Positions 35,196 through 63,700 of a DNA stretch of 64,000 bases are shown in pieces. The translations under genes and the position numbers were made by a program. Source of the stretch: a virus. Within the stretch, counting starts at the first letter, position 1. Every line of letters starts with the position of its first letter. Location: IMG/VR virus record IMGVR_UViG_3300040802_000094, positions 20,956 through 84,955 of that record, one strand, 5' to 3'. The notes below the pieces were generated by a model. That model was not told where the DNA came from and did no database searches. It was given only the letters and a program-made list of their open reading frames with translations.

Positions 35196-35309
35196 ATGCC
35201 AATCGACCCCTTGGCATTTTGTCGGCATCGATCTAAAATGATTCAAGATAAAAGAGAAAGTTAAATAAAAATTTAGAACTTTTCTTTCATTGTTCTCCTT
35301 TCTTGAACT

Positions 35310-35337
35310 AAAAGCCCGCCCCAAAAGGCGGGCTTTT
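35310..35337. terminator. Intrinsic terminator ending the structural operon
   Basis: AAAAGCCCGCC-CCAAAA-GGCGGGCTTTT. Confidence 0.75.
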
Positions 35338-35395
35338 GCTTTTGCAAGGATATAGAGAAAGAATAAAAATGGAACCTGAAGTAAAAAAGTGAACG

Positions 35396-35704
35396 ATGAC
35401 AATAACGATAGAAGAGAAAAGAGCAAAATGTAAGGAGCTCATTGTACGGATCCTTTCCAAAGGTGAGGAGATGACCGAAAAGGAAGTTTTCGATCGCCTA
35501 AAAGAAACCCATTTTTATGGGGAAAAGCGTCATCCCATATATGGAAAAGCGCTGGTAATCCGATCGCTAGAAGCATTAGAGGTCAAAGGAGTCGTTGCGG
35601 TCAGAAATGGAGATACCTATCGTGCAGGAAAAAGGTATTCCTTGATTGAGTCTCGGAATCGGCAATGTTCTAACATATTGGAGTCGGGTAAATCGAGAGA
35701 ATAA
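35396..35704 (+). CDS. Putative winged-helix DNA-binding protein
   Basis: ILSKGEEMTEKEVFDRL...VIRSLEALEVKGVV...RYSL pattern. Confidence 0.55.
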   Translation: MTITIEEKRAKCKELIVRILSKGEEMTEKEVFDRLKETHFYGEKRHPIYGKALVIRSLEALEVKGVVAVRNGDTYRAGKRYSLIESRNRQCSNILESGKSRE

Positions 35705-35828
35705 AGAAACTTCTTGACGGAAATCCCGTATCCTCAAAAGGAAAATGCCGGGAAAGAAATGGCATCCTAATATTTTTTGTGAACGAGGTAAAAGAATCTA
35801 CAATAAGGAGGTAGTAACAAAAAAAAGA

Positions 35829-36149
35829 ATGAAAACCCCACACTTGCTGAGCAGACTGGACGGGAAAGAGAAGCGCCTTCTCTCGAAGGCAGAGGAAGAA
35901 TTTCACCGGGATGACGCTAACAGGTGCAACATCAATGACTACCCGGAAAAGACGGGACTCCTTTGGCTCGCCAAAAGGCGGGTAGAGGAGGTTGTTGACT
36001 CATTCCTGAAAAGAGAGGGAAGCTGCCTGTATGTTTACAGACAGCTAAACCCTCTGGGGTCTTCTTTGTACGTGGGGCTAACGCCCCTCGACGACCAAAA
36101 CTACGACACGGAAGGAATTTCGTGTCATGGTCTCGCAACCAATGATTAG
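35829..36149 (+). CDS. Hypothetical protein
   Basis: ORF with upstream AAGGAGG; start uncertain. Confidence 0.5.
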   Translation: MKTPHLLSRLDGKEKRLLSKAEEEFHRDDANRCNINDYPEKTGLLWLAKRRVEEVVDSFLKREGSCLYVYRQLNPLGSSLYVGLTPLDDQNYDTEGISCHGLATND

Positions 36150-36152
36150 TAA

Positions 36153-36198
36153 TTAAGCACAAACGCCGCACAGTCAACTGTGCGGCGTTTGTGCTTAA
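36153..36198. repeat. Perfect 21-bp inverted repeat with a 4-nt loop
   Basis: TTAAGCACAAACGCCGCACAG-TCAA-CTGTGCGGCGTTTGTGCTTAA. Confidence 0.9.
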
Positions 36199-36215
36199 GC
36201 GGAAAATCCCAGAGA

Positions 36216-36623
36216 ATGGACGAAACAAAAGAAGACCAGACCAAGCCTATGAAGGGTAAAATTAAAGACATATCCTATTACCAGAAACACCCCTTACTGC
36301 CCTTGATACAAAAAGCAGTAAAAGGCGTCACACTTGCTAGAAAAACGGCAGGCAAGCCTTCGTTCACGGCGACCGAGTTCGGAGCGATCGTCCTCATCGA
36401 ATTGGTTGATGCAGAGTTCGACGAGAACTCCAGATTCTTTCACGTACTCAAAACAGCGTGGGAGTCTGCAACAGGGGAAGAGATAAACGCTCAGTACCTC
36501 AAATCTCTGAAACGGGCAATCCAGTCCAACCAAAAGCCAAATATCGTTGCTTCGGCGATCGCGATGATCGCGCAAAGCTACCGCCAACGGCGCAAGCCCT
36601 GGTTGCGGCGACGGGCTATATGA
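36216..36623 (+). CDS. Hypothetical basic helical protein
   Basis: 135-aa ORF directly upstream of the structured ncRNA; Arg-rich C-terminus. Confidence 0.6.
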   Translation: MDETKEDQTKPMKGKIKDISYYQKHPLLPLIQKAVKGVTLARKTAGKPSFTATEFGAIVLIELVDAEFDENSRFFHVLKTAWESATGEEINAQYLKSLKRAIQSNQKPNIVASAIAMIAQSYRQRRKPWLRRRAI

Positions 36624-36631
36624 TGTATAAT
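36603..36631 (+). promoter_or_regulatory. Sigma70-type promoter of the ncRNA
   Basis: TTGCGG-N17-TATAAT. Confidence 0.7.
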
Positions 36632-36636
36632 TAAAG

Positions 36637-36832
36637 CATAGAAACCGGGGTGGCGCCCGGTAGACCAAAAACGCCACTCCCGCAAGGGAGGTGTTACCAG
36701 GCTGAGCAACCTGAAAGCAAAACTGCTCTTTGCGCGCAAAATAGAAACGATAATAAAATATTTTGCACCGGGGTAGCGCCCGGTAGACCAAAAACGCCAA
36801 AGAGTCGTAGCATTCGCTGCGGCTCTTTTTTT
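36637..36832 (+). ncRNA. Structured ncRNA with three tandem H-type pseudoknots
   Basis: Own promoter and U-tailed terminator (36799-36832); 33-nt direct repeats at 36644-36676 and 36767-36799; a third pseudoknot at 36698-36728. Confidence 0.65.
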
Positions 36833-36840
36833 GTGTCAAC

Positions 36841-36864
36841 CAAATTGCAGACGTCTGCAATTTG
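36841..36864. repeat. Perfect 24-bp palindrome, core TTGCAGACGTCTGCAA (copy 1)
   Basis: CAAATTGCAGACGTCTGCAATTTG. Confidence 0.9.
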
Positions 36865-36865
36865 A

Positions 36866-38092
36866 CTAACGGGCAACTACCCTCAAAGATCCTTGGACTT
36901 CGAGAAGGGCATACGGGGGAATTTCTATTTCGCTTAAAGGCTTTTGGGTCTCGGAGTGCTTGAGAGACATCTGCGGAACGCTGTAAATACCTTCCGCTTT
37001 TTCGAGTGCCGTCGCCAAAGTTTTCTCAAACCCCCGATCGCCCCAAATTCCGTGAGGGGGATTGACTCCGGACTGAATCGCCCTGGCAACGAGATTGAAG
37101 GCTTCCCGATTCGGATCGATCCCGAAAGGCTGGCGGACGAGGCCGACCTCGACGACCCCATTGATGGGAACGATCTCGGCCTGTCGGACGCGCAAAATAT
37201 GGCCGCAGGGGCTGAGGTCGGCAAGCTGCTGGCGGATTTCGCTAAGGATGGGGGAGTCCTCCGATACTCCCGGGAACCAAACGGCGATCGTCACCCCCGG
37301 GGCAACATGCCCGGGGAGTCCGTAACTGCTAGTCAAAATCAACGTTTTTTGGCTTCCCATTGCCCGAGCGGCTTCGTAGTAGTCGGAAGGCGTCACCAGT
37401 CGCCCGAAAGGACGGTTCTCACGATCGCGTGCGTTCCCCCTCCTCAGTCCGTCCCTGGCTCGTTCGACGACTTCGATCAGTGTCTCTACGGGGCGCCCCG
37501 GAGAAATCACCTTGCCGTCGTTGTAGATCTGAGCGAGATAGGGAATGAATGGAGCGTCGGAAATTTCGCCGACTCTGATTTTGGAGACGAGGCGAGGGTC
37601 TCCCGCGAACCTGGCGGCAACTGTCGCCGATTCATCCGACCCCTCAATCGTTACGTCGGAAAGCGTGTAACAAAATATGGACGGATCGACGATCGATCGC
37701 ACTTGAGTATGGATCGGAACTTCGAGGGGGAGACGCCGCGCGATCGCTTCCCGCGATCGTTTGACGACCAAGTTGAGGATCGGAGACTCGGCAGGGTTAC
37801 GCTCGACCCCTAGCAATCTCAAGTGTCCGACCAGATTGGCGTCGGGGAGAAGATTGAGTTCCTGCCCGAAGTACCCTAGATGTCGGACGAAAATGGAGGC
37901 CAGCACCGCATGGGCGGACGTCGGAGTCAGGGAAGAGAAAGGACTAGGACTCCCATCCGGCAAGGGCTTGGCCGCAGCGACCAGAAAGCGCTTCAGCATT
38001 TCTTGCTCGTCTACCGCCCACAGCTCGGGAGACTCGATCAATCGAGTTTGGGTTTCGAGCCATTCCATCAACTGGTAAAAATCCTCGTACAT
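36866..38092 (-). CDS. Baseplate J-like (gp47/gp6 wedge) protein
   Basis: LRLLGVERNPA, VAARFAG, GRPVETLIEVVERA, LVTPSDYYEAA, PGVTIAV match Baseplate_J motifs; follows a gp25-like gene. Confidence 0.75.
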   Translation of the reverse strand: MYEDFYQLMEWLETQTRLIESPELWAVDEQEMLKRFLVAAAKPLPDGSPSPFSSLTPTSAHAVLASIFVRHLGYFGQELNLLPDANLVGHLRLLGVERNPAESPILNLVVKRSREAIARRLPLEVPIHTQVRSIVDPSIFCYTLSDVTIEGSDESATVAARFAGDPRLVSKIRVGEISDAPFIPYLAQIYNDGKVISPGRPVETLIEVVERARDGLRRGNARDRENRPFGRLVTPSDYYEAARAMGSQKTLILTSSYGLPGHVAPGVTIAVWFPGVSEDSPILSEIRQQLADLSPCGHILRVRQAEIVPINGVVEVGLVRQPFGIDPNREAFNLVARAIQSGVNPPHGIWGDRGFEKTLATALEKAEGIYSVPQMSLKHSETQKPLSEIEIPPYALLEVQGSLRVVAR

Positions 38093-42832: not shown

Positions 42833-43189
42833 GTTGACTTTTTAGTCAAGCCCAGGGGGATCTTATCTGAGGAGAGCGGGTGGGAAGAGGCCAGCCAGGA
42901 GAGGGGATGCTCTCGGTTCTCGGGTCTCCCCTTTCGCTTACCTCCCCTCTTTCCTTGCTCGCCTGATCGCGCGTGCGCGTACACACATGGATTTAGATTT
43001 TTGTTAAAGAGATTTGATATTGACCAAAATTGTGCAATGGATTGCCCAATCGAGTGCAATGGATTGCACCACGACAAGAATGGACGACTTCGGCATCCGG
43101 TCGCAGTTTTTACAACATAGGGCAATGGGCTTTACTGTCGGCCATAAAAAAAGACCGTAGCGCAATGCTACGGTCTGACGGCCATGTAA

Positions 43190-43255
43190 TGGGCAATGCG
43201 GGAGTCGAACCCGCCATGGGTGTTACCGCCCGATCCTCCACTCGGTCGATCGCCC
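43190..43255 (-). ncRNA. tRNA-like RNA lacking a canonical anticodon arm
   Basis: GGGCGAT/ATTGCCC-A acceptor stem; GCGGG-TTCGACT-CCCGC T arm; CCGAGTGG D-loop-like segment; 66 nt; TAGAAT -10 upstream; terminator at 43147-43176. Confidence 0.7.
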
Positions 43256-43330
43256 GAATTCATTCTATACGGAAAAGTCGATTTGCATCGTGGTATCGTA
43301 AACCTGCCGTAGAATCCGAATAACTCTGCA

Positions 43331-45855: not shown

Positions 45856-47256
45856 ATGAACACACACATTAAAATGGACACAGAGGATCTAAAAAAGATC
45901 TTCTTTTTGGCGAAACAGGGGGGACTCTACTCCCGACTAGGAGTAGAGTCCTGCCGCATGTACAGCAGGACTCTACTCAGCAGAGTGGAGATCCCGATCG
46001 AGGCGGCAGATCCGGCGGTGTCCACCTCGATCGCCTTATCGCAAAAGCAGACCTCTCTGCTTTTGCGATACCTACAAAAGCAGAGAGGAGAGGTGACGGT
46101 CTGGTTTTGTCCAGATCGTCTCCGCCTCTCCTGGGATGAGGGGCGATCGTCGATCGCCCTCATCCCAGGAGAGGAAGCAGCCTCCTCCCCCGACTTGAGG
46201 GGGTCAAAGAGGCTTCCCTTGGGAGAGTTCGACGGCTACGCGATCGTCGAACTCTTTCGCGAAAGCCCCCTGGACGGGGGGGAAGATTTCCTCCTCTTCA
46301 AGGAAGAGAAGATCTTCCATGTCCAGGCTTCCGGCAATACAATTGCCCGGAAGCGTGGGATCAGGAGAATAGGGTCTCACCGGAAGCCCCTTCCGGTGAG
46401 ACCTCTAAAGGTACACCTCCCTAAAAAGAGCTTCTGGGGAGGTGTTAAACGCTTCCTCCCCACGGAAAGAGAGGTCGGAAGGGGTGCCGACGTGAGGTGC
46501 TTCCTCTCGCTCCTTTCCACGGAGGGGGCAAAGTATATGGAGATCCTCCTCTCCCGACTTCAGTCGGAAGAGATTGAGGTGGAGGGGAGGATCCTCCTCC
46601 CCATTGGAGCGGAAGAACCCTCTCTTCCACCAGTAATGCCCTGGACGGGGGGGATCGACTTTTCTACCGTCCAGGGTAAAGGCTCCGGCTTTGCCTCGAT
46701 CGCAAGGATGCGAGAAGGGGCATGGTTGGAGTTCTCCGAAGGAGCCTGCCTCCTTTTTTCGGAAAGAGGTAGCGTCACCCAGGAGATCCCAGCAGGCAAA
46801 GCCTGGGGAAAGATCCCCGGGAGGTCTTTCTTACCTTTTTGGGAGGTAAGAGAGATTGCTCGGGAGGACGTAGTCTCCTTGAGGTTCGCGTCCGAGGACG
46901 CGAACTCTATCGTTGCAGTCGAAACGCCGACTGCAACGATAGAGTTTTGGCACGCCGACGAACACACATTCCCCCCTCTTCCCGAGGAAGAGGTCTTGGC
47001 GGTCGAATTCCTCGACGAAAAGGGATGGATCGCACTATCCCCCAATGGGGAGATCCTTTGTTGGAAGGGGGAAGGATACCCCGTCGAAAGGGGGGCATGG
47101 CTCCAGTCCCCGACTCATTTCTCGATCGCGATGCACCTCGTCAAGATCGCGATCGAGGCAGGGCAAGAGGGAGAAATCCCTTACGACCTCCTCGAGGTCC
47201 TCAAAAGAAAGGTTTCTTTTGAGAAAATAGAAGATTTTCTCATTTTTGAGACCTAG
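45856..47256 (+). CDS. Hypothetical protein, possible divergent beta-clamp-like fold
   Basis: N-terminal EIPIEA...LLRYLQKQRGEVTV...LRLSWDEGRSSI; FPPLP linker; TATAAT upstream. Confidence 0.6.
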   Translation: MNTHIKMDTEDLKKIFFLAKQGGLYSRLGVESCRMYSRTLLSRVEIPIEAADPAVSTSIALSQKQTSLLLRYLQKQRGEVTVWFCPDRLRLSWDEGRSSIALIPGEEAASSPDLRGSKRLPLGEFDGYAIVELFRESPLDGGEDFLLFKEEKIFHVQASGNTIARKRGIRRIGSHRKPLPVRPLKVHLPKKSFWGGVKRFLPTEREVGRGADVRCFLSLLSTEGAKYMEILLSRLQSEEIEVEGRILLPIGAEEPSLPPVMPWTGGIDFSTVQGKGSGFASIARMREGAWLEFSEGACLLFSERGSVTQEIPAGKAWGKIPGRSFLPFWEVREIAREDVVSLRFASEDANSIVAVETPTATIEFWHADEHTFPPLPEEEVLAVEFLDEKGWIALSPNGEILCWKGEGYPVERGAWLQSPTHFSIAMHLVKIAIEAGQEGEIPYDLLEVLKRKVSFEKIEDFLIFET

Positions 47257-48786: not shown

Positions 48787-51700
48787 ATGGCGGATCAATA
48801 CGGTATCCAGGCAACTTTTCTCTTTGACGTCCCGACCGAAGCGTTTTCGACGATCGATCGGGTCATTTCTCAGTTGCAGGAACTAGATCGCGTCGTCCGC
48901 CAGATCGAAGGAGGGATGTCGGGCGGCGGTTTCGGCCAACAGCTCAAAAAGTCCATGGCTACCGCATCGAAGTCGGTGACAGGCGTGGGTCGAGCCGTCG
49001 GCACGATCGCGGACGAAGCCAAAGAAGCCAAGAAGCGACTGAAACCCCTCAAAGAAGAGTTTGCCGCGATCCGTGCGGAAGCGCGCAATGTCGAGTTCGG
49101 CGAAGACATTTTCGACGAGAAGAAGATAAAACAGGCGGAACGAGCGATCCGGCAGTACAAGAGATCCCTCGATCGCCTCGGAGAGTCCGTCCGGGGATCG
49201 AGTGCGCCGGAGCGAAAATTTTTAGCCGACCTGCAAAAACAGAAGCAGGTTATGGATTCGCGAGTAGAAATGCAGCGAACCCAGCGTACGGCGGCGCGTG
49301 CGTCGCAAAGGATAGGAGAATTCGCGGCGCTAGAAGGTGCCGGAAAGGCGATCGCCGCACCCCTTACCGCGATCGCCAAAGACGCGATCGCGGTATTTGC
49401 AGGTTTCGACGCGAAGATGGCCGGAGTCGCCGCAGTGAGCGGAGCGAAAGGCGAAGATCTGAAAGCGCTGCGATCGCTCGCCAAAAAAATGGGCGCTTCC
49501 ACCAAATTTTCAGCCTCCCAGGCGGCGGAAGCTCAATCTTTTCTAGGGATGGCCGGATTCAAGACCAATCAAATCCTGGAAGCGCTACCCGCAACGTTGG
49601 ACTTGGCTGCAGCCGGGAACTTGGATTTGGGGCAGGCTGCGGACATCGCCTCCAACGCTATTTCCGCCTTCGGCCTGAAAGCGGAAGAGACGCGCCGGGT
49701 TGCCGACGTGATGGCGAAGGTCGCGGCGAGTGCGAATACCAGCGTTTCCCAGCTCGGCGAAGCCTTCGCCTACGCCGCACCTGCGGCGCACGATTTTGGG
49801 ATGCGGATGGAGGAAGCGACTGCCCTGCTCGGCGTGGCGGGAAATATCGGCATTCAGGCTAGTGCGGCAGGGACTGCCCTACGGGCGGGGGCAATCGAGC
49901 TGACTAAAGCCGACAAGCAAAATATGCTGTTGGAAAAGCTCGGCGTAACGGTCGTAGACGCGGAGACAGGAGTCGCGCGGAATATTATCTCGATCGTCGG
50001 GGATATCCGCGATTCCATGCGGACTCGTTTTAGGGGAGAGAACTTCCTGGCAGAGATGGAGGCGATCCAGGAAAAAGTTAAAACCCAAGGCGGGAATATC
50101 GAAGAAGAGTTGAAAAAACTGGAGGAGAAATACCCGCAACAGGCCGAAGGCTTGACGACCCTCGCCAATGTATTCGGCAAAACGGCGGTGTCGTTTTGGA
50201 GCGGCCAGGTTTCTCAATATGAAGTTCTCGTTCACGACTCCCTCCAAGCCCTGGCGGCAACGGTGGATACGAACGCCCTCGAAGAGGTGATGTACGCTTC
50301 GATCGAAGGATTGCGCGAGGCCGAAGGCAAGGATCTGTTTGGGAAGCTTGCGACCCAGGCCGGATCCTACGAAGGAGCCGTCAAGCTTTTACAGGTCGGA
50401 CTGAGGGGACTGTCCGAGTCCGGAAGGGAGACGACGGGCGCCGCCGAGGCTATGGCGAAAATCATGAGCAACAACCTCGAAGGCGCTTTCGTTTCCCTCG
50501 GATCGGCGATCGAGGGATTCAAGATCGCTTATATCGAGCCAATTTCTCCTTTAATTGCGGGGGTCGTCAACGGAATTACGGAGATCGTCCGCTTCCTGAC
50601 GCAACTGCCCGCTCCAATTCGCTTTTTGATCGGGATTGCCGGAACCCTGGCCGTGACGCTCAGTGCCTTGGCGATCGCCGTCGGGGGAATGGGTATCGTT
50701 CTCTTCGGATTCTCGAACGCAATGGCGACGGCCAAGGCGGCGACGATCGCCCTCAACGGCGCCGCCATCCCCCTGACGGGATTCTTTGAGAAAGCGATGG
50801 GAGCCTGGGAAGGAACTTCACCGATCGAGACGGCGTTGAAAACGTCGAGTTTTGCCGTCGAAGACTTTCAGGAGGCCGCCACTCTCGCCTTCTCTGAGGT
50901 ATGGTCGGGACTGAAGACCTTCGCCGTGCGGACGAAAGCGGCGACCTTCGCAATGGCTCAGAATTTCTTGATGGTTTCGCGAGCTTTTGCGACGTCTCCC
51001 CTGGGTATCAGTATTATCTCGATAATCGCGCTCAACGAATTGATGCGGCGGGCAGTTCCCGGAGTCAACCTGTTCGCCGCCGCCGCCAGCGCCTTGGGGG
51101 GAGTTCTCGGTTTTGTTTCGGGGATCTTCCAAGGACTCGGGGACGTTGTAATGGAGGTAATCGGAGATAACCTGAAAGCCGTTTTTGCGGTATTTTCGAC
51201 TCCCCTGTTGCAAGCGGAAGACTCGATCGTTTCCTTTTTGTCAGCTTTTCGGGACTTGAGTACGGTTGGGCGAAAAATCGGGCGAGACTTGGGGCGAATC
51301 ATCCTCTCTCCATTCACGTTGCTGAAAAATACGATCTCCGGCGTCCTCGGGATCGGACTCGATTTCATCTCGGACAGGCTGAGCCTGATCGCGAGCGTCA
51401 TCAAATTGTTCACCGACTTCATGACGGGACGGATGGCGGGTCCCGAAGATTTCGTCAAGAATCGCTGGAATGTCGTCGGACAGATGGCAATGCACGTCCT
51501 CGCCTCGTGGCGAATTGCCGTCGGCATTATCCAAGGGCTGTGGAACTTTCTCGTTTCGATCGCCATTCGAGTGGGGGGCGCGATCGTCGGCGCCCTCAAT
51601 CACGGCGCCGCCGACGTCACCCGGATAGCCTGGCAGAAGACCGCGATCGCCGTCCTCGAATATATGAAACAGATGGCGATCGCGGCGTGGGAATTCGGCA

Positions 51701-54700
51701 GGCAAATTGCCATTACCCTTGCCGGACGCGCGGTCGGTTTCGCGATCGCGGCGTGGGACGCCCTTTCCGAGAAACTGAAAGTTGTTGCCGCGATCGGACG
51801 TAACGCGATCGCGGGGCTGGAGATGCCAGATTGGGTCGCTTCCGCGTGGACGGCGATCGCGACTTCCATTTCTTTAGTCGTGGAGTCGTTTAGATCGCTC
51901 AAGATTCCGGACTTGGAAGGAATTGATTTTTCGAGTCTGGGGTTTTCTCTTTCCGGAGTGGGGCTGAGTTCCAAGGCGTTCCTCGACTGGGTTGCCAATG
52001 CCGCTTCCGAAAAGTTTGCCCTCTTGGAAAGTGCGGCGATCTTCGGGTGGTCGCAAATGCAACGAGCCGGGTCGCTGACTGCGGATGCGTGGCGGTCGGT
52101 CGAGGCTACGCTATTTTCGGTGTGGCAAAACATCGCGAATTTTGCGTCTCGGATAGGAGAGGCGATTGTCGGCGCCCTCAATCACGGTGCCGCCGACGTC
52201 ACCCGAGCGGCCTGGCAAAATGCCGCGATCGCCGTCATCGGATACATGAAGCAGATGGCGATCGCGGCGTGGGATATGGCGATGGAAATCGTCGCGCCGA
52301 TCGCGACGATCGTCGTTACGGAGGTTCAAAAGTCCTGGGCGGAAATCGCTCGGAATTTTGGGGATATAGGGAAAGTCGTCGAATCCGCCCTGCCGGGAAT
52401 CGGGATTCCGACTTGGATTGTCAACGGATGGAAGGCGGTCTCCACGGCGATCGCCTCGGTCGGCGACACCCTGGCATCCCTCCGCGTCCCCAGCTTCGGA
52501 GGTCTCGATTTTTCTCGGGCCAGCGTTTCTTTGGCGGGAGTGGGACTGAGTTCCAACGCCGCCAAAGACGCGATCGCGGCAACGGCGTCGGAAGGCTTCG
52601 ACAAAATGCGCGGCGCCGCCATCTCAAGCTGGGAAGAAATGGATCGGGCGGCGGAAAGAACCGCTCAAGCGTGGAAGGATACCCGCGACTCCTTCCTGTC
52701 GGTTTGGCAGTTCGTCGCCGGATTCGCTTCTCGGATCGGAGGGGCGATCGTCAACGCCCTCAATCACGGCGCCGCCGACGTCACCGAGGCGGCATGGATT
52801 CGTGCTACTGCGGCGATCGTCGAAAGCATAAAAGGGATCGTAGGGACGGCGATCGCGGCGAGTTCGGCAATTGTCGGTTCGATGGCGATCGCCGTTTCGG
52901 AGCGACTCGGAGATGCCTGGACGTTCGCCTCGACGAAGGCAGGAGATCTGTCGGCTGTCGCGACTTCGGCTGTCGCGGCGATGGAAGTCCCCCAATGGAT
53001 TCTCGACGTATGGCACGCGATCGCCGACGCCATCTCTTCGGCGGGGCAGGCGTTGAAGGCGATCGAGATGCCCAATTTCGGGGGTCTCGACTTTTCCGCG
53101 ATCGGTTCGTCGCTACTGGCAAGCATTGCGGGACTTCGATCGAATCTCTCTCCGATAACTGCGGGAATCGCCCCGACTCCGTCCTCGACCCTCGTCGCCT
53201 GGGGGGCGAAGGATGTCATCGAGGAGGGCTGGGATCGTCCTCATCGAGCGATTGACGCGATCGAATCCCGAAAAGTCACCTACTCGAAAAACTTCAACCC
53301 CGAAACGGGAGCCATCATTATCCCGTCGAACCCTATCGGGGACAAGCTGTGGGAATTTCGGGAGAAGCTTTCCAACTTCCCCGCCTGGCTCGAAGGACAA
53401 AAAAGGCAACTGGAGGAAGAGAAACGGATCGAGGCGGAACGCAGGGAGGCCAATCGCTTGAAGCGAGAGATGGCCAAACAACAGGCGGCGGAAGAGCGGG
53501 CGAACTCTCCCAATTTTTTCCAAAAAATGTGGATTCGGGCGGTGGGGGCGATCGAAGTCAAAGCGCGGGCGGTGGGCGATCGCGTCTCGAACTTTATCTC
53601 CGAAGCGGCCTTGGGACTGTTCGGGCAGGGGACGATCGATTTCTGGACGACGCAATTCGACCTGTACGGACAGGCGATCGACAACGGAGTCGCCAAGTAT
53701 CGAGAAATTATCGACGTCGCGCAAGGGGTCGAGGGGGCGACTGCCTCCTGGCAACAGAAGTTGGTGGCGATCGTCCTCGCGATTAAAGAGATCTTTACGT
53801 CCCTCAACCAGGTTCGCAAAAACTTCATGGCGGCAGAAGAAAGCTTTATCGAGAAGTATTTCGAGCATTTCTCCGTTTCCGCCATGATGGCGTCCGTCGC
53901 CGCTTCGATGCCGATGGGGTTGCTCGGCGCGAAGCTGCCGGGACTGAAGATTCCGGGAGGACTCGACAAGATGGCCAGCGAGACCGTCCGCAAGGTCGGC
54001 ATGGGAGAATTCTCCCCGATCTTCGAGGCGATCGAGTCTCCCGGCATCCCTACGGGACTCATGCGAATGCTGCCGGGCATCGTCGCGATCGCCACCTCCC
54101 AAGGATTCTTCGACGGACTGAATCAAGGGGTCTCTCACTTCCTGGAAAATAGCGAGATCCACGCGAAGGCATTTGCAAATAATTTCTTCAACGCCCTCGG
54201 TCCCGGACTGTCCCAGGTCCTCGACCAACAATTCGGGCTAACCCGGGAAAAGGTAGACACCTTCCTCACGGATCTGTTCCAAGGGGGGCTGTTTACCTGG
54301 AAGGAAGGGGGAGAAGGCTGGGAGGCCGAGTACTCGGTTATGACGAGCGGCTTGCTGGAATACTTCCAGGGGGTCGGCGAAACCCTCAACGACGTATCGG
54401 AAGGATTCAAGCCCATTTTCCACGCTTTTGCCACGTGGAAGCCTATCCCGTTCCTGCCCCCGATCGCGGAACTGCTCGTAGTCGAAAGCTTTATTGCGGG
54501 CATCGGAGATTTGCTGCAATCTCCGGCGCTGAGGGGGATTGGGAAATTCGTCCTCGTCACCCTTCCCGGCTCGATCCTCGCCGTAGTCGGAGCGATCTCC
54601 GGCATGGTGCTGGCGGCGATCGCCCTGATCGGGAAATTGGCCATTTCTGCCCTCAAGGCGCTCGGAATCCTCAAGGATCAAACGAAGGAAGCCGGGGGGG

Positions 54701-57700
54701 TTTTCGTTCGGGCGATCGGAGTCGCCTTCACTTGGATAGAAAAACTGATGGCACGAATCCCCTACGTCGGCAAGCATCTCGCAAAGGCGATGCGATGGTC
54801 GTTCGACCTGTTGGGGAGGGTGTTCGACTACCTCGGGCAGAAAATGCCGATCGTTTTCGGCCAAGTCCAAAAATATGGCGGCATCGTCTGGAACGTTTTT
54901 CAGACGTCGATTTTTCCCGTCATCAAAAACTTGACCGACGAGATGTTCTCCGGGGCGAGATACTTGTTCGACAAAGGATTCCTCCCTTTGTTTAAGTTTT
55001 TGCAGCTCATTCTCGGCCCCAAGCTGTGGTTGCTGTACATCCGAACGAAAGGACTGAAGGGGGTCACGAAAGGAATCAATCCGATCGATATCGGCATTAC
55101 CCTCGGAGAGGGAATTATCAACGGCATCAGCCATGTCCTGACGGGGAGACCCGCGAATTTGATTCGCACGCTGATCGGGGCGATCGTCGGCGAAGCCTTC
55201 CCGATGGACGTCCTCCAGAGCAAGATGCGAAGCGCCAACATGATTTTGGCAACCGTGCAGCAGCAAAAGCAATTTATGCGTACGGGGAAAGTGCCAAAGA
55301 TCGAAGGAATTACCGTTCAGGTTCTCAACACCTTGCGACTGATCTCCCCCCTCACGCAGATCGCGGCGCGGCTGACTCTGACTCTGTCCATGTGGTACAG
55401 CCTACTCAAGCCAATTACTCCGGGGATGCTCTTGGCGATCCGCCACTGGGAAGAAATTCACTACAAGATTTCGGTAATCTCTCCGGCGTTGGGGATCCTT
55501 CGCTTTATCTTCGTCGATACGATCGACTTGGCGATCGCGGCAGGCAAGGCATTTTACCAAGCCTTCCAGTTTATCGGCTGGGCGGTCGGCGGTGCCACGA
55601 CCCAAATTGTCAAAGGGATCCAACTGGTCATTTGGGGAATGACGATCGCGGCGCGGGCGGCGACACTCGCGATCCTCGTCCCGATCCGCGCCCTCCTGGA
55701 GGGACTGCGACTGGGGATGCTGGTGTTCCGCGAGCTGACAAAAACGGTCGGGTCGGTCGTGCTGGATATCAAGAACAACCTAGACGCGATCGTCAAGGAT
55801 ATCGGAGAAGGATTTTGGACCTTCTTTAAAGAAGGGGATATTCGCCCGTTTGCGAAGGCGATTTTCACTGCGATATTTCGGATCGGCAAGATCTCCTTAG
55901 ATATGGCGTTCCTCTATTTCGGGATCCTTCGCCGCGAATTTATCATTTGGGCTTTCATTACGGGGAAAGCGCTGTTCTCGACTTTGGTCAAAGAAGGCCC
56001 CACGATCGTCTGGAGGACGCTCAAGTTTATCGTCAGCTTGACTTTCGAGGCGATCTCTTGGGTCGGGAGACAGATCGCGTCCGCGATCGATCGCGCGTTC
56101 GCGGCGATCCGAAACCGCATCGTCGCTCCGACGATCGCCGCCGTCCTCCACTTCCACAAAACACTTACGGATACGATTCAAGCATTGCAGGGAGCGAGCC
56201 GACCCGCCGCCGCCTTGCAGGCCATCATCCTCGAAACGCTCGCCGCCGTCGCCGCCGTCGCCCTGTTATTTCCGAAGTACGGCTTGCTCTCAAAAACGGG
56301 AGCTTACGCCTGGGCGCAATCGCTATTCGCGCAAAAAATGAGCCTCCTGACCTTGCTCAAGATCGGGGGGCCGATCGGGTTTTTTGCCTTTGCCGCCTAC
56401 GAAGCCCTGACTGGATTCAAGGAGATCGACGCCGTCCTCAACAAGATCGGCCTGAGCATCAAAGACGTCGAGAACCTGTTTCTTCGCCTGCTCAACAACT
56501 TGACGGCAAAACCGGACTTCGGCCTTGCCGAAAGGATCGGCGGATTTTTGAAAGGCGCCATTCAGATTTTCCCCATCGTCCTGGGAGCGCTCACCGTCTT
56601 CGGGGCGCTGATCAAGAAGGATATTTTCTTCGGAGTCAAACTCGTTTTTACGGCGATCGGGAAGACAATCAACGCCGTTTCCCATTTGGTATTTCTGTTC
56701 CGATCGATCAAGGAATTGATCTTCTCGATCTCCCTCAAACCTCAAGTCCTCAAAGGGATTCACGTCGCGCGATCGCTGACCGGGACTTACGGCAGCGAGG
56801 AAGAGAAGCAGACCCGAGGCGCGGAAGCGGCGATGGCCAAAGACGCACTGAAGCTCCAAAAAATAGTGCGTAGAAACCAAGACCGACTCGACACGCAGAA
56901 GATAATCCAGCAAGCAAAACAGCATCCCGAACTGTTTGGAGACCTCACCCGACGGGAGCGAGTTCGCAAGGGAGGGTTCCTCGGCTTCGGGGCTTCCTTG
57001 AGAGAAGAAACGGTCTTGTCGAACAAGGGTCACCAACTGCTGGCCAAAATGCGCCAAGGCGCCTACGAAACGGGATCGGGAGAATTTGCGGATGCTTCGC
57101 TAATCGGCCACGCGAGCAAAATTGGCGGCACGCTGATCGGCCTCGCCCCCGAACGATTGAGGGAGCTGGCGAAAGAAGCTTCCCCGGATCTCGAAGACCT
57201 CTCGAACGCACTCGAACGGATGAAATTGCAAAAAGTTTCAAAATCCGAAGTGCAGAAAATGTACGTCGCCAACTTGGTGGGATTCGGGGGGCAGGGGAGA
57301 TCGGGGGAAACCCTCAACAAAGAACAGATCGTATCCAGGCTGGTGCAAGGCGAGAAGTCGCCACTCTTCGTTCGGGAAGGACAAAAGTTGTCGCGCAAAA
57401 AGTTTTTGAGGTCTCAAGGGGTCGATTTGGGCGACGAACCGTATGGCGAACACGGTCCTTATACGGGGATTCCCGAAGCAACGATCGAAAAAACCGAGCC
57501 TTACGAGCGACTTTACGCTTATTTAAAAAATGCGAGCGGGATCCCCCTACAGTACGAATCGACTTTTTCGGCGATTCAGGATCAAATACAGCAGGGAGGC
57601 GCGATCTCCAACTGGAAATTCCAAACGCAAGATACAATCCTCGACATGATCTCCGACCCGCAGGAGAAAGGAAAGATCGTCGGGGCGATCGATCGCGCAC

Positions 57701-60700
57701 TCGCTCGTATCAAAGAAGCGAACTTATACCAAAGTTCGCCGACGCTCATCCCTGCGGGAGATGAATCGACTGGTATTGCAATGGGCTTCCTCGCGGAAGA
57801 GGTGTCGAAAGCGTACAAAGATCTCTCGATCGAGGAGATGGGGCGGATGACTCCCGCTCACTTCGAGAATCTCAAGAAACAAGTCGAGCAAACGATCGCG
57901 CAGGATGTCACTCAAGCTACAAATCGGGCTTTTTCCTCGCACAAAGTCGATCCGGAATTCATCGCGATCGTCAAAAGCTCCAAGGTAAAGCCCGGGATTC
58001 TGGGGATTTTCGACCCCGTATTCAAGACGCTCAAAAAATCTTTAGGTGGGGCGCTAGACTCCGTCATCGATACCGTCCCCTTCCTCGCCCAAATCGTCCG
58101 AGGAAAAGAAGCTCGCTTGAACGCCCAAAGGGCAGATTCGATCAACGCCCGTATCAAGGCACTTCGAGACGAAAAGAGGATAGGGAGAAAAGACGTCGAT
58201 CGCATCCGCGCCTTGCAGCGCGAAGCCAATTTATCCAAGGATCGATCACGGCAGTCCCGCTCCTATCGCGGTATCGCCCAAATCCTCGAAGTCGATCCCG
58301 CAGCGATCGCCAATCCCTCCTTATCCTTGGAGGACATGACCTACGTCAAAGAGCGTCGCAACGAGATGATCCGCGAATTTCGCAGGCAGCAGGGCAGCAT
58401 CCAGACCGCCTTCACCCACGAAGACCTGACGATCCCGTTCGACGACGAGAAACTTTCGGCGATCGACAAGCTGATCGAAACGGGGTACTTCGATCCGAAG
58501 GCGTCTTACGTTACCAAAAAAGTCGGCAACAAATCCATCTCGGAAAAGTGGCTGACCAGTCTCTCCAAGGCATCCAGCCTCCGGGAATCGGAATTAATCG
58601 AGATGTTTTCCGCAGAGGCGATTCTGAAATCGAGACAGAGAAGCCTGAAAGAGCAGATCTTGATTTTCACGGGACTCAAAAAAAGCGAAATCAACTACGG
58701 CAGACAACTCAAAGAACTGACCAACAACCTCCAGCGACTGCAACGCCTCCACGAAACCAAGCAACTGAAAGCGAGGGAGCGGGAGCGAACCTTACTCCTC
58801 CAACGCGAGAAGGCATTTTCGGAGCATTTCAGAAAGCTCGGAATCGGGGAACAGTCCTTCTTTGCAGGACTCGAACGAATTCAAAGAGAGCGACTGCTCG
58901 ACTTTAAGCGAACCGGAAACCTCGAAAAGGCGGTTCCCAAAGGGGAACGGCAGCAGTTCAATCAAATCATCCAGCAGTTGAGCGGACACGGCACCGCCAA
59001 AAGCTTCATGGCAGCCCTGGCGGAGAAAAAAGCTACGGCAAGCCCCGAAGTCCTCAAAAGTATCAAGGAGATCGAAGAGCAGTTCGCCGCGATCGATGTC
59101 AACCCGCAGATATTTCAAAAGCAGAAGAATCGTAACAGACTGATTGAAACCCTGCGCCAAGAAATCTCCGACGCAGGGCTGACGACGGGGCCACAGCAAA
59201 ATCTGCAGGCAGCACAGCAGACAATAGCAAGAATAGTTACAGGTTGGGGCGACGTCAGCGAGCAAAAAGAATACTCGCGGCTGTTTTATCAATTCGCGGT
59301 CAAGGGAAAAGAAACGATGGCGATGGCCGACGCCGAACTGGCGGAAATGGCCAAGAACTTGAAACTCGTCGATAACTTGGCCGACGAAGCGGATGCGGCG
59401 GACGCAATGAGGGAATTCGGAACTCGCAGTCTGAGGTCGTATCCGAAAACCTTTGCGGATAGCTTGGTCGATTTCCAGAAATCGGTACAAAAGATCTTCA
59501 TCACTGCCGACCTGAGCGTCAAGCGCATCTTCAAGGAGATGTCAAACGTCAACATGCTCGGGTTTCACCCCCTCCGAAAAGTCTCGGACTTAATCCGCCA
59601 CCAGTTTTACAGTCCGATCCACAATTTATTCGTCGGGGTCAATCGCCAATTCGAGAGCGCGATCGCCAAGATCGGACAGCTCAATATCGAATCCAAGCGA
59701 AAAACAAAAGACTTCTTCGTCAATTTGCCCGGCGTCAAGCAAGTACTGGACGTGCGGAAGAGTCACGAGCAGGAAGCGGGCAGGAGCCTCGAAGCCTTAA
59801 TCAAAAAGGTGGGGGTCGGCAGCTTGGGCGAGTTCGAGCGTAACTTCACCAACGCCCTAAAGGATCCGAATGTCGGCGACAAGAAATTCAAGTCGCGGCA
59901 GGTGAGCGAGATACTGAGATCGATGTTTTTGTCGGGAGACAGGGGGATCGCGGAAGAAATTAGAGGATCCTCCGACGCGGAAGTCAGTGGATCTCTAGAC
60001 GCGGTCGTGAAAGCTTTTGCCCGAACTCTCGAAATCAGCGAAACGGAAGCGCGGCAATTGTTTGGCAAAGACGAGAATACCAAGCTGCTGACAAAGCCAC
60101 TCAAAAGTCTCGGACGAAAATACCTCGAAGCCGTCACGGTCGAGCCGATCAAATGGCTTTTCCATGCGATTCCCAAAATTCCCGGACAGATTATGGCGGC
60201 TCCGTCGAAAATCAAGGCGGGAATCGAAGAGATCAAAGCAATCCCCGATCGCACCACGTCGTGGATGACGGGAATCGCGGACTCGATTTCGTCCGCCTTC
60301 CGAAAGCTGTCGGAAAACGTCAACAAATCCGTCAGTAAGGTGCAAGGGGCGACTCGGATTAGTTGGGGCGATCGCCTCAAAAACTTTTTTATCGGAATCG
60401 GCGACTTTTTCCTATTCGGCAAAACGGCTTCGACGCTGAAGACACGACTCTCCCGACTCCAGAAGATCAACAAAAAGGTCGAAACGAGTACCCGAGCCGC
60501 ACTCGTTGACGGAAAAATCCAGAAAATCCCGCGCTTTCAACCACGGAGGGCAGAGCAGTATCGACAAATCCCGCCGACATACGCGCTTAAAAGTGGACTG
60601 GATCCCCGTTCCGTCTCTCCGGAGGTATTGCGCGCGCTGCAACCTCAACCCACCGCGATCGCGCCCGGACTAGCCCCTCCATCCCCGGGAGGGGCGATCG

Positions 60701-63700
60701 CGCCGGGATTCAAGGTCGTCGCCCCGATGGAAACGATCGGCCTCGCGAAGGGAAGTGTCCTTTCGGGGGGGGAGGTGGTCAAAGGTCGCTACATGCGATT
60801 GTTCGAGGAACAGCAACGGGTCGGCGAACGACTCAAGGCCGCACGCGAGTCGTCGGCGGCGTGGAAAGTCGGAGTTGCCGCGAAGTCCTTGGCGGGAATT
60901 CAAACTGCATGGAAGCAGGAGGCGGCGGGAATCTCCGATCGCGCCCAAATCGAGGCGATCGCCGCGAAATACAAAGAGCAAATGGCGCGAGCGCTCGAAC
61001 CCCTCGACGGAAAAATGCAGGCGATCGCCCGCGTCAGCGCCACGGTTTTGCGAGTGTCGATCGCCGCAGGTCGGGGCATGGGGCGAGTAGCCAAAACCTT
61101 ATTCGGCATGGTTCGAGACCGCGTTCGCGGCATCGGCGAAGTCGTCAACCTCTCCAAGTTTCAATTGCTGCTCGCCAAGCAACGGCAAAAACTTGAAGGA
61201 TTGAAGCACAAAAGGGAAGGCGAACTGCAACTGCGGCGAAGCGGGCGCAACATCACTCCTTTGATCGAAATGGCATCCGCCGCGATCGCGAAACTCGAAC
61301 AGGATATCGAGGGGACGCAAAAGACGATCGCCCGTCTGAGCGAGCAGATGTCGGCAAGACAAAGGGCAGTAGCGACGTTTTTCTCTCAATCGGCGGCGAA
61401 GGTTCGCAGCGCGTGGAGATTCACGACCGGATTCGTCGGAAGCCTGTGGAATACCCTCGTAGGCTGGGCAGGCAAGATCGGTCCGAAGATCCGATCCTTT
61501 CTCAATCACGGCGCCGCCACGGCGACCAAGATCGCCTGGGACGACACGACGGGCGCCGTCAAGCAAGATATGGCCTCGATCGAAGCGCAAGCCAAAAAGT
61601 CGGGGCGGGCGACGGGCGCGGCGATGGTCAACTCCGCCGAACAAGTCAAGAGCAGCCAGTCGAAACTGCTACAGCATTCGATCGGCTTCGCCAATCGAGT
61701 GGGGGGTGCCATCTCCCACGTCGGGAGGGCGGGTTTCGCGGTTGGTTCGGCGATTTCTGCCGTATCTTTCGGCGCCCAACAGGCGGCTTCTTCGTTGGGA
61801 TCCATGGGGATTATTTCGGAGGAGTCGGCAGCGCGATTTTACAAACTTTCCGAAATAACGATGATTTTTGGGGGTATCGGCAGCGCGATCGTCCCGATCT
61901 TCGGAGCGCTGGGGGCGTCGCTGACTGCGTTTGGAAGCCTTGCGGCAGTCGTTTTTTCTCCCTTATCGCTGACGATCGTCGCGGTCGTTGCGGGCTTGCT
62001 CCTACTCAATAAAGCGGTCGAATCGCTGTTTGGCATCAACGTCTTAGGAACGGCGCTCGACAGTGCGATTGCGCCGTTCGGGAGTCAGATCGACTGGGTG
62101 AAAGAAAAATGGGCGTCGCTACAAAACTGGATCGGCGGCATTTGGGCGAGCAAATTCGGCGAAGTCATGCGTCCCTATACGAGACAGATCGTTGGAGCGT
62201 GGCAGTGGGCATCCTCGGCAATCCAAAGCAGCCTGGGTTGGCTGATCCGTCCGGCGACCAGGATCGCGGAAATGTTGGTCAACCTGCTCAACCATAACCC
62301 TACCGAGCGGATTCCGAATGCTTGGGAACATGCCGTCGAACGAATCAAGGACGCCCTGTTCGGGCTTCCGGTCATCGGGGCGCTCGTCGGTGGCATACTT
62401 CGGCATAAACTCGGATTTCTGACGGCGATTCCCCTGACGATCGCCTTCAGGGGGGCGTTGTGGGGACTCGCCAAGACTTTCGTCGGACTCGGAGCCAAAG
62501 CCCTCCCCGTCGTCGGGTGGATTTTTGCCATTTTTAGTGGGATTCGGCTTCTCAATGCCGCGATCGCCAAACTGACGGGGTACGACGCACTGGGTGCGTT
62601 GGGGGCGAAGATGGCTCCTGCGCTGACGGCGATCTCGGAGAGAATTGCGCGATTGAGGTACGACGTCGTCGCGACGTTCGGAGGGATAGCCAGGCAGGTC
62701 GAAAATGCTTTGGGTTGGATTCCGGCTTTCGCCGAAAATGTGAAAAGCGTGCTGTCGAAACTATTTTCGGGGGCGGTACTCGGTGCGGGAGTTACGGCGA
62801 TCGCCTTTGGGGTGAGTCAGCTCTTCAGGCACGCCAATTTGCTGATCGGGTTGATTTCCAAGCTGGGTTTTATCGTCCCCCTCGTCTTCAATCCCTTTGT
62901 TGGAGCCGTGACGGGTATCGTCACGGCGGTAGAGTTGGCCAACGCCGCCATTCGTCACTTTTTCGGAGCCGACTTGCTCCAAGGAATCCACGCCCGGATC
63001 GGCAGCGCCATCGAGCGCGCCGCGATCGCGCCCGTCGAATGGCTTCGCGCGGCTTGGAGTACGACCGTCGAAGCGATCGCGGCCAAAATTGTGGGGCTGG
63101 CGGACTTTATCGAAATCAAAGTTGGAGGCGTCCTCGAATTTCTGTTCTCTCCCGGACGGTGGGTTGCGGGGATTGCCGGAGCGATCGGAGGAGCATTGGG
63201 CTTTGGGGGCGGCAGTGCGGGGGAAGGCGAGGCGCAAAACCACGGAGCAACCGCTTCAGGAATTGCAGACGTCTACAATTTTGCCGCCGCCCGCGTCGTG
63301 AGGGCTTGGTTTGCCACCTTCGACGGCATCAGGCAGGGAATGATGTGGTTGGTGCAACCCGCTCTCGACGTCGCCACGATGTTGATCGACGCGCTCAACC
63401 ACAACCCTACCGAACGCATCCCCGAAGCGTGGAACGGGGCGATCGCCAACATCAAGGAATCGATTTTGGGGCTGCCGTTGATCGGCGGGGCGGTGGGCTT
63501 GGCGATGGGCGAATCCTTGAAGCCCCCGCAGTGGCTCGGAGAAGCTTGGGGTTCGGTCGCGGGATTCTTCGATAAAAAAGAGCAGCCCGAGGTTTCGATT
63601 CCCGAGCCGATAAAAGCGGTAACCGAAGTGGTGACGGAACCCAAGCCCATCGACAGCAAGCCCTTTTGGAGCAATTGGTTCGGCGGGGCGCAGGCCGCGA

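What the first reader, a model, noticed from the sequence alone, without database searches (positions are those of the whole stretch)
36603..36832. Stand-alone ~195-nt ncRNA built from three tandem H-type pseudoknots separated by hairpins
Seen, in order: promoter TTGCGG-N17-TATAAT; PK1 ACCGGG-GTGGCG-CCCGGT-AGACCAAAAA-CGCCAC (loop pairs with tail); hairpin CTCCC-GCAA-GGGAG; PK2 CAGG-CTGAGCAA-CCTG-AAAGCAAAAC-TGCTC; hairpin GCAAAATA...TATTTTGC; PK3, a 32/33 copy of PK1; U-tailed terminator. PK2 differs in sequence but keeps the same architecture and a 10-nt A-rich linker, so the structure is conserved while the sequence is not. Established: type III antitoxins (ToxI, AbiQ, CptI) are arrays of ~35-nt pseudoknots, and phage phiTE uses pseudo-ToxI repeats to evade ToxIN. 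Inference: an RNA decoy against host defence (antitoxin mimic with two specificities), a protein sponge or a nuclease-resistant RNA. No ToxN-like gene was recognised nearby.
Basis: partly seen in the sequence, partly recalled or inferred. Interest (0 to 1): 0.85.

Follow-up and report, generated by a model that had tools for sequence, protein, structure and literature searches.

The report
Orphan cyanophage small RNA with pseudoknot modules
A roughly 195-base non-coding stretch in an uncultured cyanobacterial virus looks like a small RNA gene made of knot-forming hairpin modules, but it has no relatives anywhere, no proof of expression, and no support for the proposed antitoxin-mimic role.

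Summary
These are a unique TTGCGG-N17-TATAAT, PK1, a GNRA hairpin, PK2, an AU hairpin, PK3 and a strong U-tailed terminator. Loop-to-tail complementarity with a 10-nt A-rich linker is rare: 3 such candidates in 128 kb of window strands, 2 of them here.

The three knots are not equal. PK1 is convincing, with 6+6 Watson-Crick pairs. PK2 is marginal, with 4+5. PK3's single difference from PK1 breaks a stem-2 pair and is not compensated.

No Rfam family matches (ToxI, wcaG and preQ1 included). No homolog of the RNA was found in phage, viral, metagenome or cyanobacterial collections. The two upstream proteins searched have no informative relatives. Related phages lack the cassette, so covariation across species cannot be tested. 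Metatranscriptome contigs from the source sample do not cover it, which says nothing either way.

The defining features of type III antitoxins were tested and are not met: no contiguous tandem array, no toxin gene downstream, no ToxN in the record.

Best reading: an orphan phage small structured RNA, probably protein-binding. The mechanism is inferred. The scan noted this same stretch once before, and no copy on other DNA.

The parts
36603..36631 (+). Promoter-like site: TTGCGG (-35-like, 3 of 6 to TTGACA), 17-nt spacer, perfect TATAAT. It overlaps the last codons and the stop (36621-36623) of the upstream ORF.
   Evidence: Sequence. This is the only TTGNNN-N17-TATAAT in the window, and TATAAT occurs 13 times on both strands. 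The consensus scan does not list it because the -35 is below its 4-of-6 rule.
36644..36677 (+). PK1: stem 1 ACCGGG/CCCGGT; loop GTGGCG complementary to tail CGCCAC; 10-nt linker AGACCAAAAA.
   Evidence: The stem 1 hairpin is -11.5 kcal/mol and the stem 2 duplex -9.3 kcal/mol.
36677..36690 (+). Hairpin H1, CTCCC-GCAA-GGGAG, with a GNRA tetraloop. It abuts the PK1 tail. It can extend by pairing CGCC of the PK1 tail with the downstream GGTG, which competes with PK1 stem 2.
   Evidence: -7.8 kcal/mol for H1 alone, -13.2 for the extended form.
36698..36728 (+). PK2: stem 1 CAGG/CCTG; GAGCA in loop CTGAGCAA is complementary to tail TGCTC; 10-nt linker AAAGCAAAAC, 7 of 10 identical to the PK1 linker.
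   Evidence: Stem 2 duplex is -5.4 and stem 1 duplex -3.4 kcal/mol: a marginal knot.
36736..36766 (+). Hairpin H2: an AU-rich 8-bp stem with a 15-nt loop, directly abutting PK3.
36767..36799 (+). PK3: a copy of PK1 with one difference (G to A in the loop). Stem 2 is reduced to 4 of 6 pairs, 3 of them contiguous.
   Evidence: Stem 2 duplex is only -2.7 kcal/mol, and it fails the scan criteria.
36799..36835 (+). Intrinsic terminator: 13-bp stem (two G.U pairs that would be mismatches on the - strand), 4-nt loop, run of 7 T.
36841..36864 (.). Perfect 24-bp palindrome immediately after the stop of the convergent gene 36866-38092(-). It is part of the junction and probably serves the - strand gene.
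   Evidence: I11.
36216..36623 (+). Upstream ORF P0006: 135 aa, pI 9.95, arginine-rich C-terminus RQRRKPWLRRR. It has no family and no relative of informative kind, and no terminator lies between it and the RNA.

Best explanation
The element is a small structured RNA of an uncultured cyanophage. It is read from the + strand and ends at the strong terminator at 36799-36835. It is either started at the TATAAT site (giving about 195 nt) or carried as the 3' end of the upstream accessory-gene transcript.

It folds into a row of short helices:
- PK1 forms an H-type pseudoknot whose stem 2 stacks on the GNRA hairpin H1.
- PK2 is a weaker, diverged module of the same design.
- PK3 is a near copy of PK1 that stacks between hairpin H2 and the terminator.

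Inferred, not shown: the repeated modules are binding sites for a protein of host or phage, so the RNA works in trans as a multivalent binder or sponge rather than by base-pairing with a target.
For: - All motifs are present and collinear on one strand.
- The promoter-like site is unique in the window and ends 12 nt before PK1.
- A strong terminator is found by the scan. Its two G.U pairs fit only the + strand.
- Folding z-score is -4.3 on + against -2.3 on -.
- Pseudoknot candidates with A-rich linkers are rare elsewhere and cluster here.
- Against PK1, PK2 has 4 pairs changed on both sides, none broken, and 7 of 10 linker bases identical. It ranks third of 504 background candidates for overall similarity to PK1 and first of 53 for linker identity.
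- No ORF in the region has a Pfam match.
- The position at the junction of two convergent genes suits a terminator-bounded RNA better than an operator.
- A second candidate small RNA gene (tRNA-like, 43191-43255 on the - strand) carries a similar terminator, 27 of 31 bases.
- No complementary target beyond chance was found in the window, which argues against a base-pairing role inside the phage.
Against: - No transcript has been shown.
- There are no homologs, so the only covariation is internal. PK2 was picked because it can fold this way, so its 'compensatory' changes are partly circular.
- PK3's only change breaks a stem-2 pair.
- Nested alternatives have similar energy: the PK1 tail can pair with GGTG, and PK1 can pair with PK3. 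By my rough estimate, using a pseudoknot penalty of about 9 kcal/mol recalled from memory, only PK1 is clearly stable.
- No binding partner is known. The protein-binding step is pure inference.
Confidence: 0.4

Rival explanations
1. The element is the cis-acting 3' end of the accessory operon. The hairpins and terminator end and stabilise the mRNA of ORF 36216-36623 and insulate the two convergent modules. There is no trans function, and the pseudoknot complementarity is incidental.
For: No terminator lies between the ORF stop (36623) and the element. The site is a junction of convergent genes. The -35 is weak. The - strand also shows weak hairpin-plus-T-run sites.
Against: One 13-bp terminator would be enough. 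The unique TATAAT placed 12 nt before PK1 and the clustering of rare A-rich-linker pseudoknot candidates are then unexplained.
Confidence: 0.2
2. The element is an anti-defence RNA mimic. The repeated 33-nt module imitates a host RNA that a defence protein binds. That RNA could be a type III antitoxin (as pseudo-ToxI does in phage phiTE) or a CRISPR repeat (as in Racr solitary repeat units), so the RNA would titrate a toxin or Cas proteins.
For: The module is 33 nt long, forms a hairpin, and its first copy lies immediately downstream of a promoter-like site, as described for viral solitary repeat units (PMC10651486). It can form a pseudoknot, like type III antitoxins (PMC3401426). The phage carries it in a low-GC accessory cassette of orphan genes.
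Against: - Tandem Repeats Finder finds no tandem array.
- No toxin gene is nearby and no ToxN is in the record.
- ToxN was not found in 61 genomes of the likely host family, though the controls were silent.
- Rfam ToxI does not match.
- No repeat-like copies occur in 401 cyanobacterial genomes (23-mer, up to 3 mismatches), nor in 144 genomes of the family of the nearest host-like MAG.
- The 15-nt tail after the hairpin is longer than the usual repeat handle (my own knowledge).
Confidence: 0.1
3. The element works at the DNA level or not at all. The two 33-bp direct repeats, each holding the palindrome ACCGGG-N6-CCCGGT and lying 123 bp apart, are binding sites for a dimeric DNA-binding protein (operator or looping), or a recent non-functional duplication.
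For: The palindromic half-sites and near-identity of the copies. The first copy lies just downstream of the promoter-like site, where a repressor would act. PK3's uncompensated change argues against selection on RNA stem 2.
Against: - The site is a convergent gene junction, not a divergent control region.
- Conservation extends 15 nt beyond the palindrome into the A-rich linker and tail.
- PK2 has the same design in a different sequence.
- The fold and the G.U pairs are strand-asymmetric.
Confidence: 0.12
4. The modules are small ligand-sensing aptamers (a riboswitch-like switch). The PK1 tail alternates between the loop and the GGTG strand, and PK3 is coupled to the terminator.
For: The pseudoknot and the extended H1 exclude each other and have similar energy. 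The size and A-rich linker resemble preQ1-I-type pseudoknots (my own knowledge).
Against: No + strand gene lies downstream to be controlled. No riboswitch family matches, even when each unit is searched alone at E <= 10. No homologs exist to show conserved ligand-contact bases.
Confidence: 0.05

Closest known systems
Type III antitoxin RNAs (ToxI, CptI, TenpI) and phage pseudo-ToxI
   Same: Short modules of about 33 nt that can form pseudoknots, repeated in one transcript that starts at a constitutive-type promoter and ends at a terminator. Phage-borne copies are known as counter-defence.
   Different: The repeats are not contiguous: two copies lie 123 nt apart and Tandem Repeats Finder finds nothing. 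No toxin gene follows the terminator, and no ToxN is in the record. Rfam ToxI does not match. No similar host sequence was found.
wcaG RNA motif (Rfam RF01761; Weinberg et al. 2010, PMC2864571)
   Same: A cyanophage-borne RNA built from small pseudoknot modules in tandem, of unknown function. This was a lead from earlier scan note e1-5668828.
   Different: The covariance model does not match here or in the two related phages (best 7.5-9.3 bits against a cut-off of 42). wcaG lies in 5' UTRs of T4-like marine cyanophage genes. This element lies at the junction of two convergent genes with nothing downstream.
RNA anti-CRISPRs (Racr; solitary repeat units; PMC10651486)
   Same: A hairpin-forming repeat of CRISPR-repeat length directly downstream of a promoter in a phage, with no cas genes recognised nearby.
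   Different: No similarity to any repeat in the 401 and 144 cyanobacterial genomes searched. There are two copies separated by 90 nt of structured RNA, which is not a spacer-sized gap.
Small H-type pseudoknot aptamers (preQ1-I, SAM-II) and luteovirus-type frameshift pseudoknots
   Same: GC-rich stem 1, short stem 2 and an A-rich linker that could lie in the stem 1 minor groove; about 34 nt in size (my own knowledge).
   Different: No Rfam match. No gene downstream. It lies after the stop codon, and the -1 frame closes at 36634, so no recoding product is possible.

Membership tests
Type III toxin-antitoxin antitoxin RNA (ToxI/CptI/TenpI) | Contiguous tandem array of short nucleotide repeats detectable with Tandem Repeats Finder (criterion of Blower et al. 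2012, PMC3401426) | tested here: not met
   TRF at minimum score 30 finds nothing in 36400-37000. There are two copies 123 nt apart, and the flanks are not similar.
Type III toxin-antitoxin antitoxin RNA (ToxI/CptI/TenpI) | Terminator followed by a toxin endoribonuclease gene (ToxN/CptN/TenpN) | tested here: not met
   The next gene is convergent and baseplate-wedge-like. PF13958 is absent from the 85-kb record. The neighbours have no Pfam, PHROG or PADLOC toxin hit. CptN and TenpN models were not searched by accession.
Type III toxin-antitoxin antitoxin RNA (ToxI/CptI/TenpI) | Match to the Rfam ToxI model | tested here: not met
   No ToxI hit at E <= 10 in the region or in single units.
Phage antitoxin mimic (pseudo-ToxI type) | Sequence similarity to an antitoxin RNA of the host | tested here: inconclusive
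   No similar sequence in 401 cyanobacterial genomes or in 144 genomes of the likely host family, but the true host is unknown.
Racr / viral solitary repeat unit | Similarity in sequence and fold to a CRISPR repeat of the host | tested here: inconclusive
   No repeat-like multi-copy matches. The host is unknown, and arrays are often missing from MAGs.
Racr / viral solitary repeat unit | Repeat lies directly downstream of a promoter and is not linked to cas genes | tested here: met
   The TATAAT box ends 12 nt before PK1. None of the ten ORFs scanned with Pfam and PHROGs between 31692 and 42752 hits a Cas family; PADLOC, run on seven of them, gives only one weak match to a candidate defence family.
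wcaG RNA (RF01761) | Score at or above the family's gathering threshold | tested here: not met
   The best score in the own record is 7.5 bits, elsewhere in the genome. Nothing is found at this locus.
Riboswitch (any small pseudoknot class) | Aptamer in the 5' leader of a controlled gene, and a match to a known class | tested here: not met
   No + strand gene lies downstream. No Rfam class matches at E <= 10.
Intrinsically terminated bacterial-type sRNA gene | Sigma-70-type -10 element, structured body, GC-rich hairpin plus U tract, and no coding capacity | tested here: met
   Transcription itself could not be tested with these tools (one search was uninformative).

The most novel reading that the evidence does not exclude
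A new family of phage counter-defence RNA. It would be a multivalent scaffold carrying two kinds of pseudoknot module (PK1/PK3 and PK2). It would trap a cyanobacterial RNA-binding immune nuclease or another RNA-binding host factor, without sequence similarity to any catalogued antitoxin, CRISPR repeat or riboswitch.
Probability: 0.1. Interest if true: 0.8.

Novelty: new variant of a known kind. Interest (0 to 1): 0.4.

Why it matters
Phage small RNAs built from pseudoknot modules (ToxI mimics, wcaG, Racr-like repeats) are few, and most have no known function. Phages of filamentous, mat-forming cyanobacteria are almost unstudied. If this RNA is made and binds a host protein, it would add a new RNA-based way for a phage to handle its host, and it offers a compact, easily mutated test object. 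As it stands, it is a single orphan locus without expression or comparative support, so its value is that of a well-defined candidate rather than a discovery.

Tried and rejected
- **Expression.** Metatranscriptome contigs from the source sample (run X4) cover 35916-36075 and 36219-36372 but not the element. Contigs cannot show absence, so this counts neither way.
- The 8 contigs that carry P0006 could not be fetched to look for population variants.
- **Homolog searches for the RNA.** All were negative:
  - GenBank phages by blastn
  - three viral contigs patterns
  - a metagenome pattern, with one hit inside a high-GC coding region, judged chance
  - 401 and 144 cyanobacterial genomes, with only chance hits in coding DNA such as a Walker A motif.
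- **Synteny.** Relatives of the convergent baseplate gene (about 45% identity) carry different DNA downstream. They lack both the RNA and P0006.
- **Upstream proteins.** P0006 and P0007 have no relatives by word-indexed search. The exhaustive search of P0006 hit only a 27-40-residue stretch resembling PKD repeats in giant surface proteins. Repetition inflated the score, and the hit says nothing about RNA binding. The ESM Atlas gave nothing.
- **Internal second promoter.** The repeat extends to 50 nt including ATAAT, but flank similarity is not significant and the TTGCGC-to-GATAAT spacing is 13 nt. Rejected.
- **Recoding.** PK1 lies 20 nt after the stop codon, and the -1 frame closes at 36634. 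Rejected.
- **Hidden peptide.** A 24-codon frame after the Shine-Dalgarno-like GGGAGG starts only with CTG and has no canonical start codon (sequence). Rejected.
- **Base-pairing targets in the phage.** None beyond chance.
- **A PK1-like candidate in relative G003** (L038 near 14948). It is single, lies in a divergent intergenic region and is judged chance.
- **CRISPR mini-array reading.** A 90-nt gap is not a spacer, and PK2 is not a repeat copy.
- **phi29 pRNA-like packaging RNA.** Only a loose analogy (loop-loop pairing). The phage type does not fit.

Full report
**Context.** The window is part of an 85-kb IMG/VR virus record, linear and estimated 45% complete. The octamer GCGATCGC (HIP1) occurs 91 times against 1.2 expected from base composition. 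The gene next to the element (36866-38092, - strand; weak PHROG hit to baseplate wedge) has its only relatives, at about 45% identity, in three places: a Microcoleus genome, a MAG labelled Richelia, and two complete 190-200-kb IMG/VR phages. The element therefore belongs to a large tailed phage of a HIP1-rich, probably filamentous, cyanobacterium from a microbial mat.

It sits at the end of a low-GC cassette (35200-36620, GC 0.36-0.50 against 0.55-0.60 around it). The cassette holds three small ORFs, none of which matches a Pfam or PHROG family. Of the two searched further, P0007 has no relative, and P0006 has only a repeat-inflated match to a PKD-like stretch. The cassette lies between the + strand structural module and a convergent - strand module.

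**The observation.**
- TTGCGG at 36603-36608 and TATAAT at 36626-36631, 17 nt apart
- PK1 at 36644-36677
- GNRA hairpin H1 at 36677-36690
- PK2 at 36698-36728
- AU-rich hairpin H2 at 36736-36766
- PK3 at 36767-36799
- a terminator with a 13-bp stem and seven T at 36799-36835.

The repeat core occurs exactly twice in the record and matches 31 of 32 bases. Formally the repeat extends to 50 nt at 82% identity, including an ATAAT before each copy. Similarity outside the core is not significant, however.

**Is it more than chance?** I scanned for H-type candidates with Watson-Crick pairs only: stem 1 of at least 4 bp, loop 5-9 nt, linker 6-12 nt, stem 2 of at least 5 bp.
- PK1 (6+6 pairs) and PK2 (4+5 pairs) pass. 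PK3 does not.
- Dinucleotide shuffles of the 200 nt give a mean of 0.079 candidates, and two or more in 0.2% of shuffles.
- The whole window holds 99 candidates on both strands. Only three have a linker with at least 60% A, and two of those are PK1 and PK2, 54 nt apart.
- Two related phages (389 kb) hold 21 such candidates, none clustered.
- TTGNNN-N17-TATAAT occurs only here in the window.
- The + strand folds with z = -4.3 and the - strand with z = -2.3. The terminator has two G.U pairs that would be mismatches on the - strand.

The thresholds were chosen after seeing PK2, so these figures are indicative. Even so, the design is clearly unusual and strand-specific.

**How good are the three knots?**
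- **PK1** is convincing. The stem 1 hairpin is -11.5 kcal/mol and the stem 2 duplex -9.3 kcal/mol.
- **PK2** is marginal (-3.4 and -5.4 kcal/mol).
- **PK3** differs from PK1 by one base, in the loop strand of stem 2. The change is not compensated (A.C), and the sixth pair is lost too. Stem 2 drops to -2.7 kcal/mol.

Nested alternatives compete. The PK1 tail CGCC can pair with the downstream GGTG and extend H1 (-13.2 against -7.8 kcal/mol). The two quasi-palindromic repeats can also pair with each other. With a pseudoknot penalty of about 9 kcal/mol (a figure recalled from memory, so rough), only PK1 is clearly favoured.

Compared with PK1 in a structure-aware register, PK2 keeps every pair. 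One stem 1 pair and three stem 2 pairs are changed on both sides, and 7 of 10 linker bases are identical. PK2 ranks third of 504 background candidates for overall similarity to PK1 and first of 53 for linker identity. This fits an old duplication held to the same fold. The argument is partly circular, because PK2 was recognised by its fold.

**Comparative evidence: none is available.**
- Rfam gives nothing at gathering thresholds, nor at E <= 10 for the region or for single units. That includes ToxI, wcaG, preQ1 and ykkC-III.
- The RNA has no match in GenBank phages, in IMG/VR patterns or in 401 cyanobacterial genomes. In 144 genomes of the family of the nearest host-like MAG there are only chance hits in coding DNA.
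- One metagenome hit lies inside a high-GC coding region and is chance.
- The related phages have other DNA at the syntenic place and lack both the RNA and the upstream protein.
- P0006 and P0007 are found only as themselves in 5.8 billion proteins. The exhaustive search of P0006 adds only a PKD-repeat-like stretch.

Covariation across species, the test that would settle the structure, therefore cannot be run.

**Expression.** A metatranscriptome of the same sample exists. Its contigs touch the neighbouring ORFs but not the element. Contigs cannot show absence, and small structured RNAs are easily lost, so this is not evidence either way.

**What it most likely is.** The junction of two convergent genes, the unique -10 box ending 12 nt before the first module, the strong terminator, the lack of any coding signal and the strand asymmetry all point to an RNA element on the + strand. 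Whether it starts at its own promoter or is the 3' end of the P0006 transcript is open, because no terminator separates them.

The modules abut their neighbouring hairpins with no spacer: PK1 tail against H1, H2 against PK3, and PK3 tail against the terminator. Coaxial stacking into two short rods is therefore plausible (inference). I found no complementary target in the phage and no gene downstream to regulate. I therefore favour a trans-acting, protein-binding role for the repeated modules, at about 0.4 for the whole statement. The binding step is pure inference.

A second candidate small RNA gene exists in this phage: a tRNA-like element at 43191-43255 on the - strand (22 bits to tRNA-Sec, below threshold). 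It has a terminator 27 of 31 bases identical to this one. This mildly supports the idea that the phage carries terminator-bounded small RNA genes.

**Comparison with known systems.**
- **Type III antitoxins.** These are defined by a contiguous tandem array, then a terminator, then a toxin gene (PMC3401426). None of these holds here.
- **Pseudo-ToxI-type or Racr-type mimics.** Such a mimic would need similarity to a host RNA. None was found, but the host is unknown.
- **wcaG.** This cyanophage RNA made of small pseudoknot modules came up as a lead from an earlier scan note. It does not match and sits in 5' UTRs.

The element works like these RNAs only in the loose sense of being built from small pseudoknot modules. 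It is a member of none of them.

**Verdict.** This is a real, unusual and well-delimited candidate small RNA with one convincing pseudoknot module, one marginal one and one degraded copy. It is an orphan and its function is unknown. The antitoxin-mimic idea is unsupported. Interest is moderate.

Noticed in passing
window 43147-43270 (- strand): A tRNA-like element at 43191-43255 scores 22 bits to Rfam tRNA-Sec (E = 0.029, below threshold), and ARAGORN calls no tRNA. TAGAAT lies just upstream. Its U-tailed terminator matches the terminator of the studied RNA at 27 of 31 bases. It may be a second small RNA gene with a shared terminator module.
   Followed up: partly
window 36153-36198: Perfect inverted repeat with two 22-nt arms 2 nt apart, between ORFs 35745-36149 and 36216-36623. 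No T run follows on either strand, so it may be a protein-binding or RNase III-type site rather than a terminator.
   Followed up: no
window 46037-46088: A 13-bp hairpin whose loop is complementary to a segment 12 nt downstream. It is the strongest pseudoknot-type candidate in the window by pair count.
   Followed up: no
window 7541-7619: Group II intron 3' domain (Rfam RF00029, 58 bits) inside the + strand gene block, directly before a 740-aa ORF (7693-9915).
   Followed up: no
window 48787-63999: Open frame of more than 5,071 codons running off the window end.
   Followed up: no
window 36216-36623 (P0006): Residues 25-64 resemble a stretch of PKD-type repeats of giant surface proteins (38-49% identity over 27-40 residues). 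The C-terminus is an arginine-rich motif, RQRRKPWLRRR.
   Followed up: partly
whole window: HIP1 octamer GCGATCGC occurs 91 times against 1.2 expected. This marks a phage adapted to a HIP1-rich cyanobacterial host.
   Followed up: partly
window 35310-35337: GC-rich hairpin AAAAGCCCGCC/GGCGGGCTTTT with A and T runs on both sides, after the 1167-aa structural gene. It is probably a bidirectional terminator that opens the low-GC accessory cassette.
   Followed up: no
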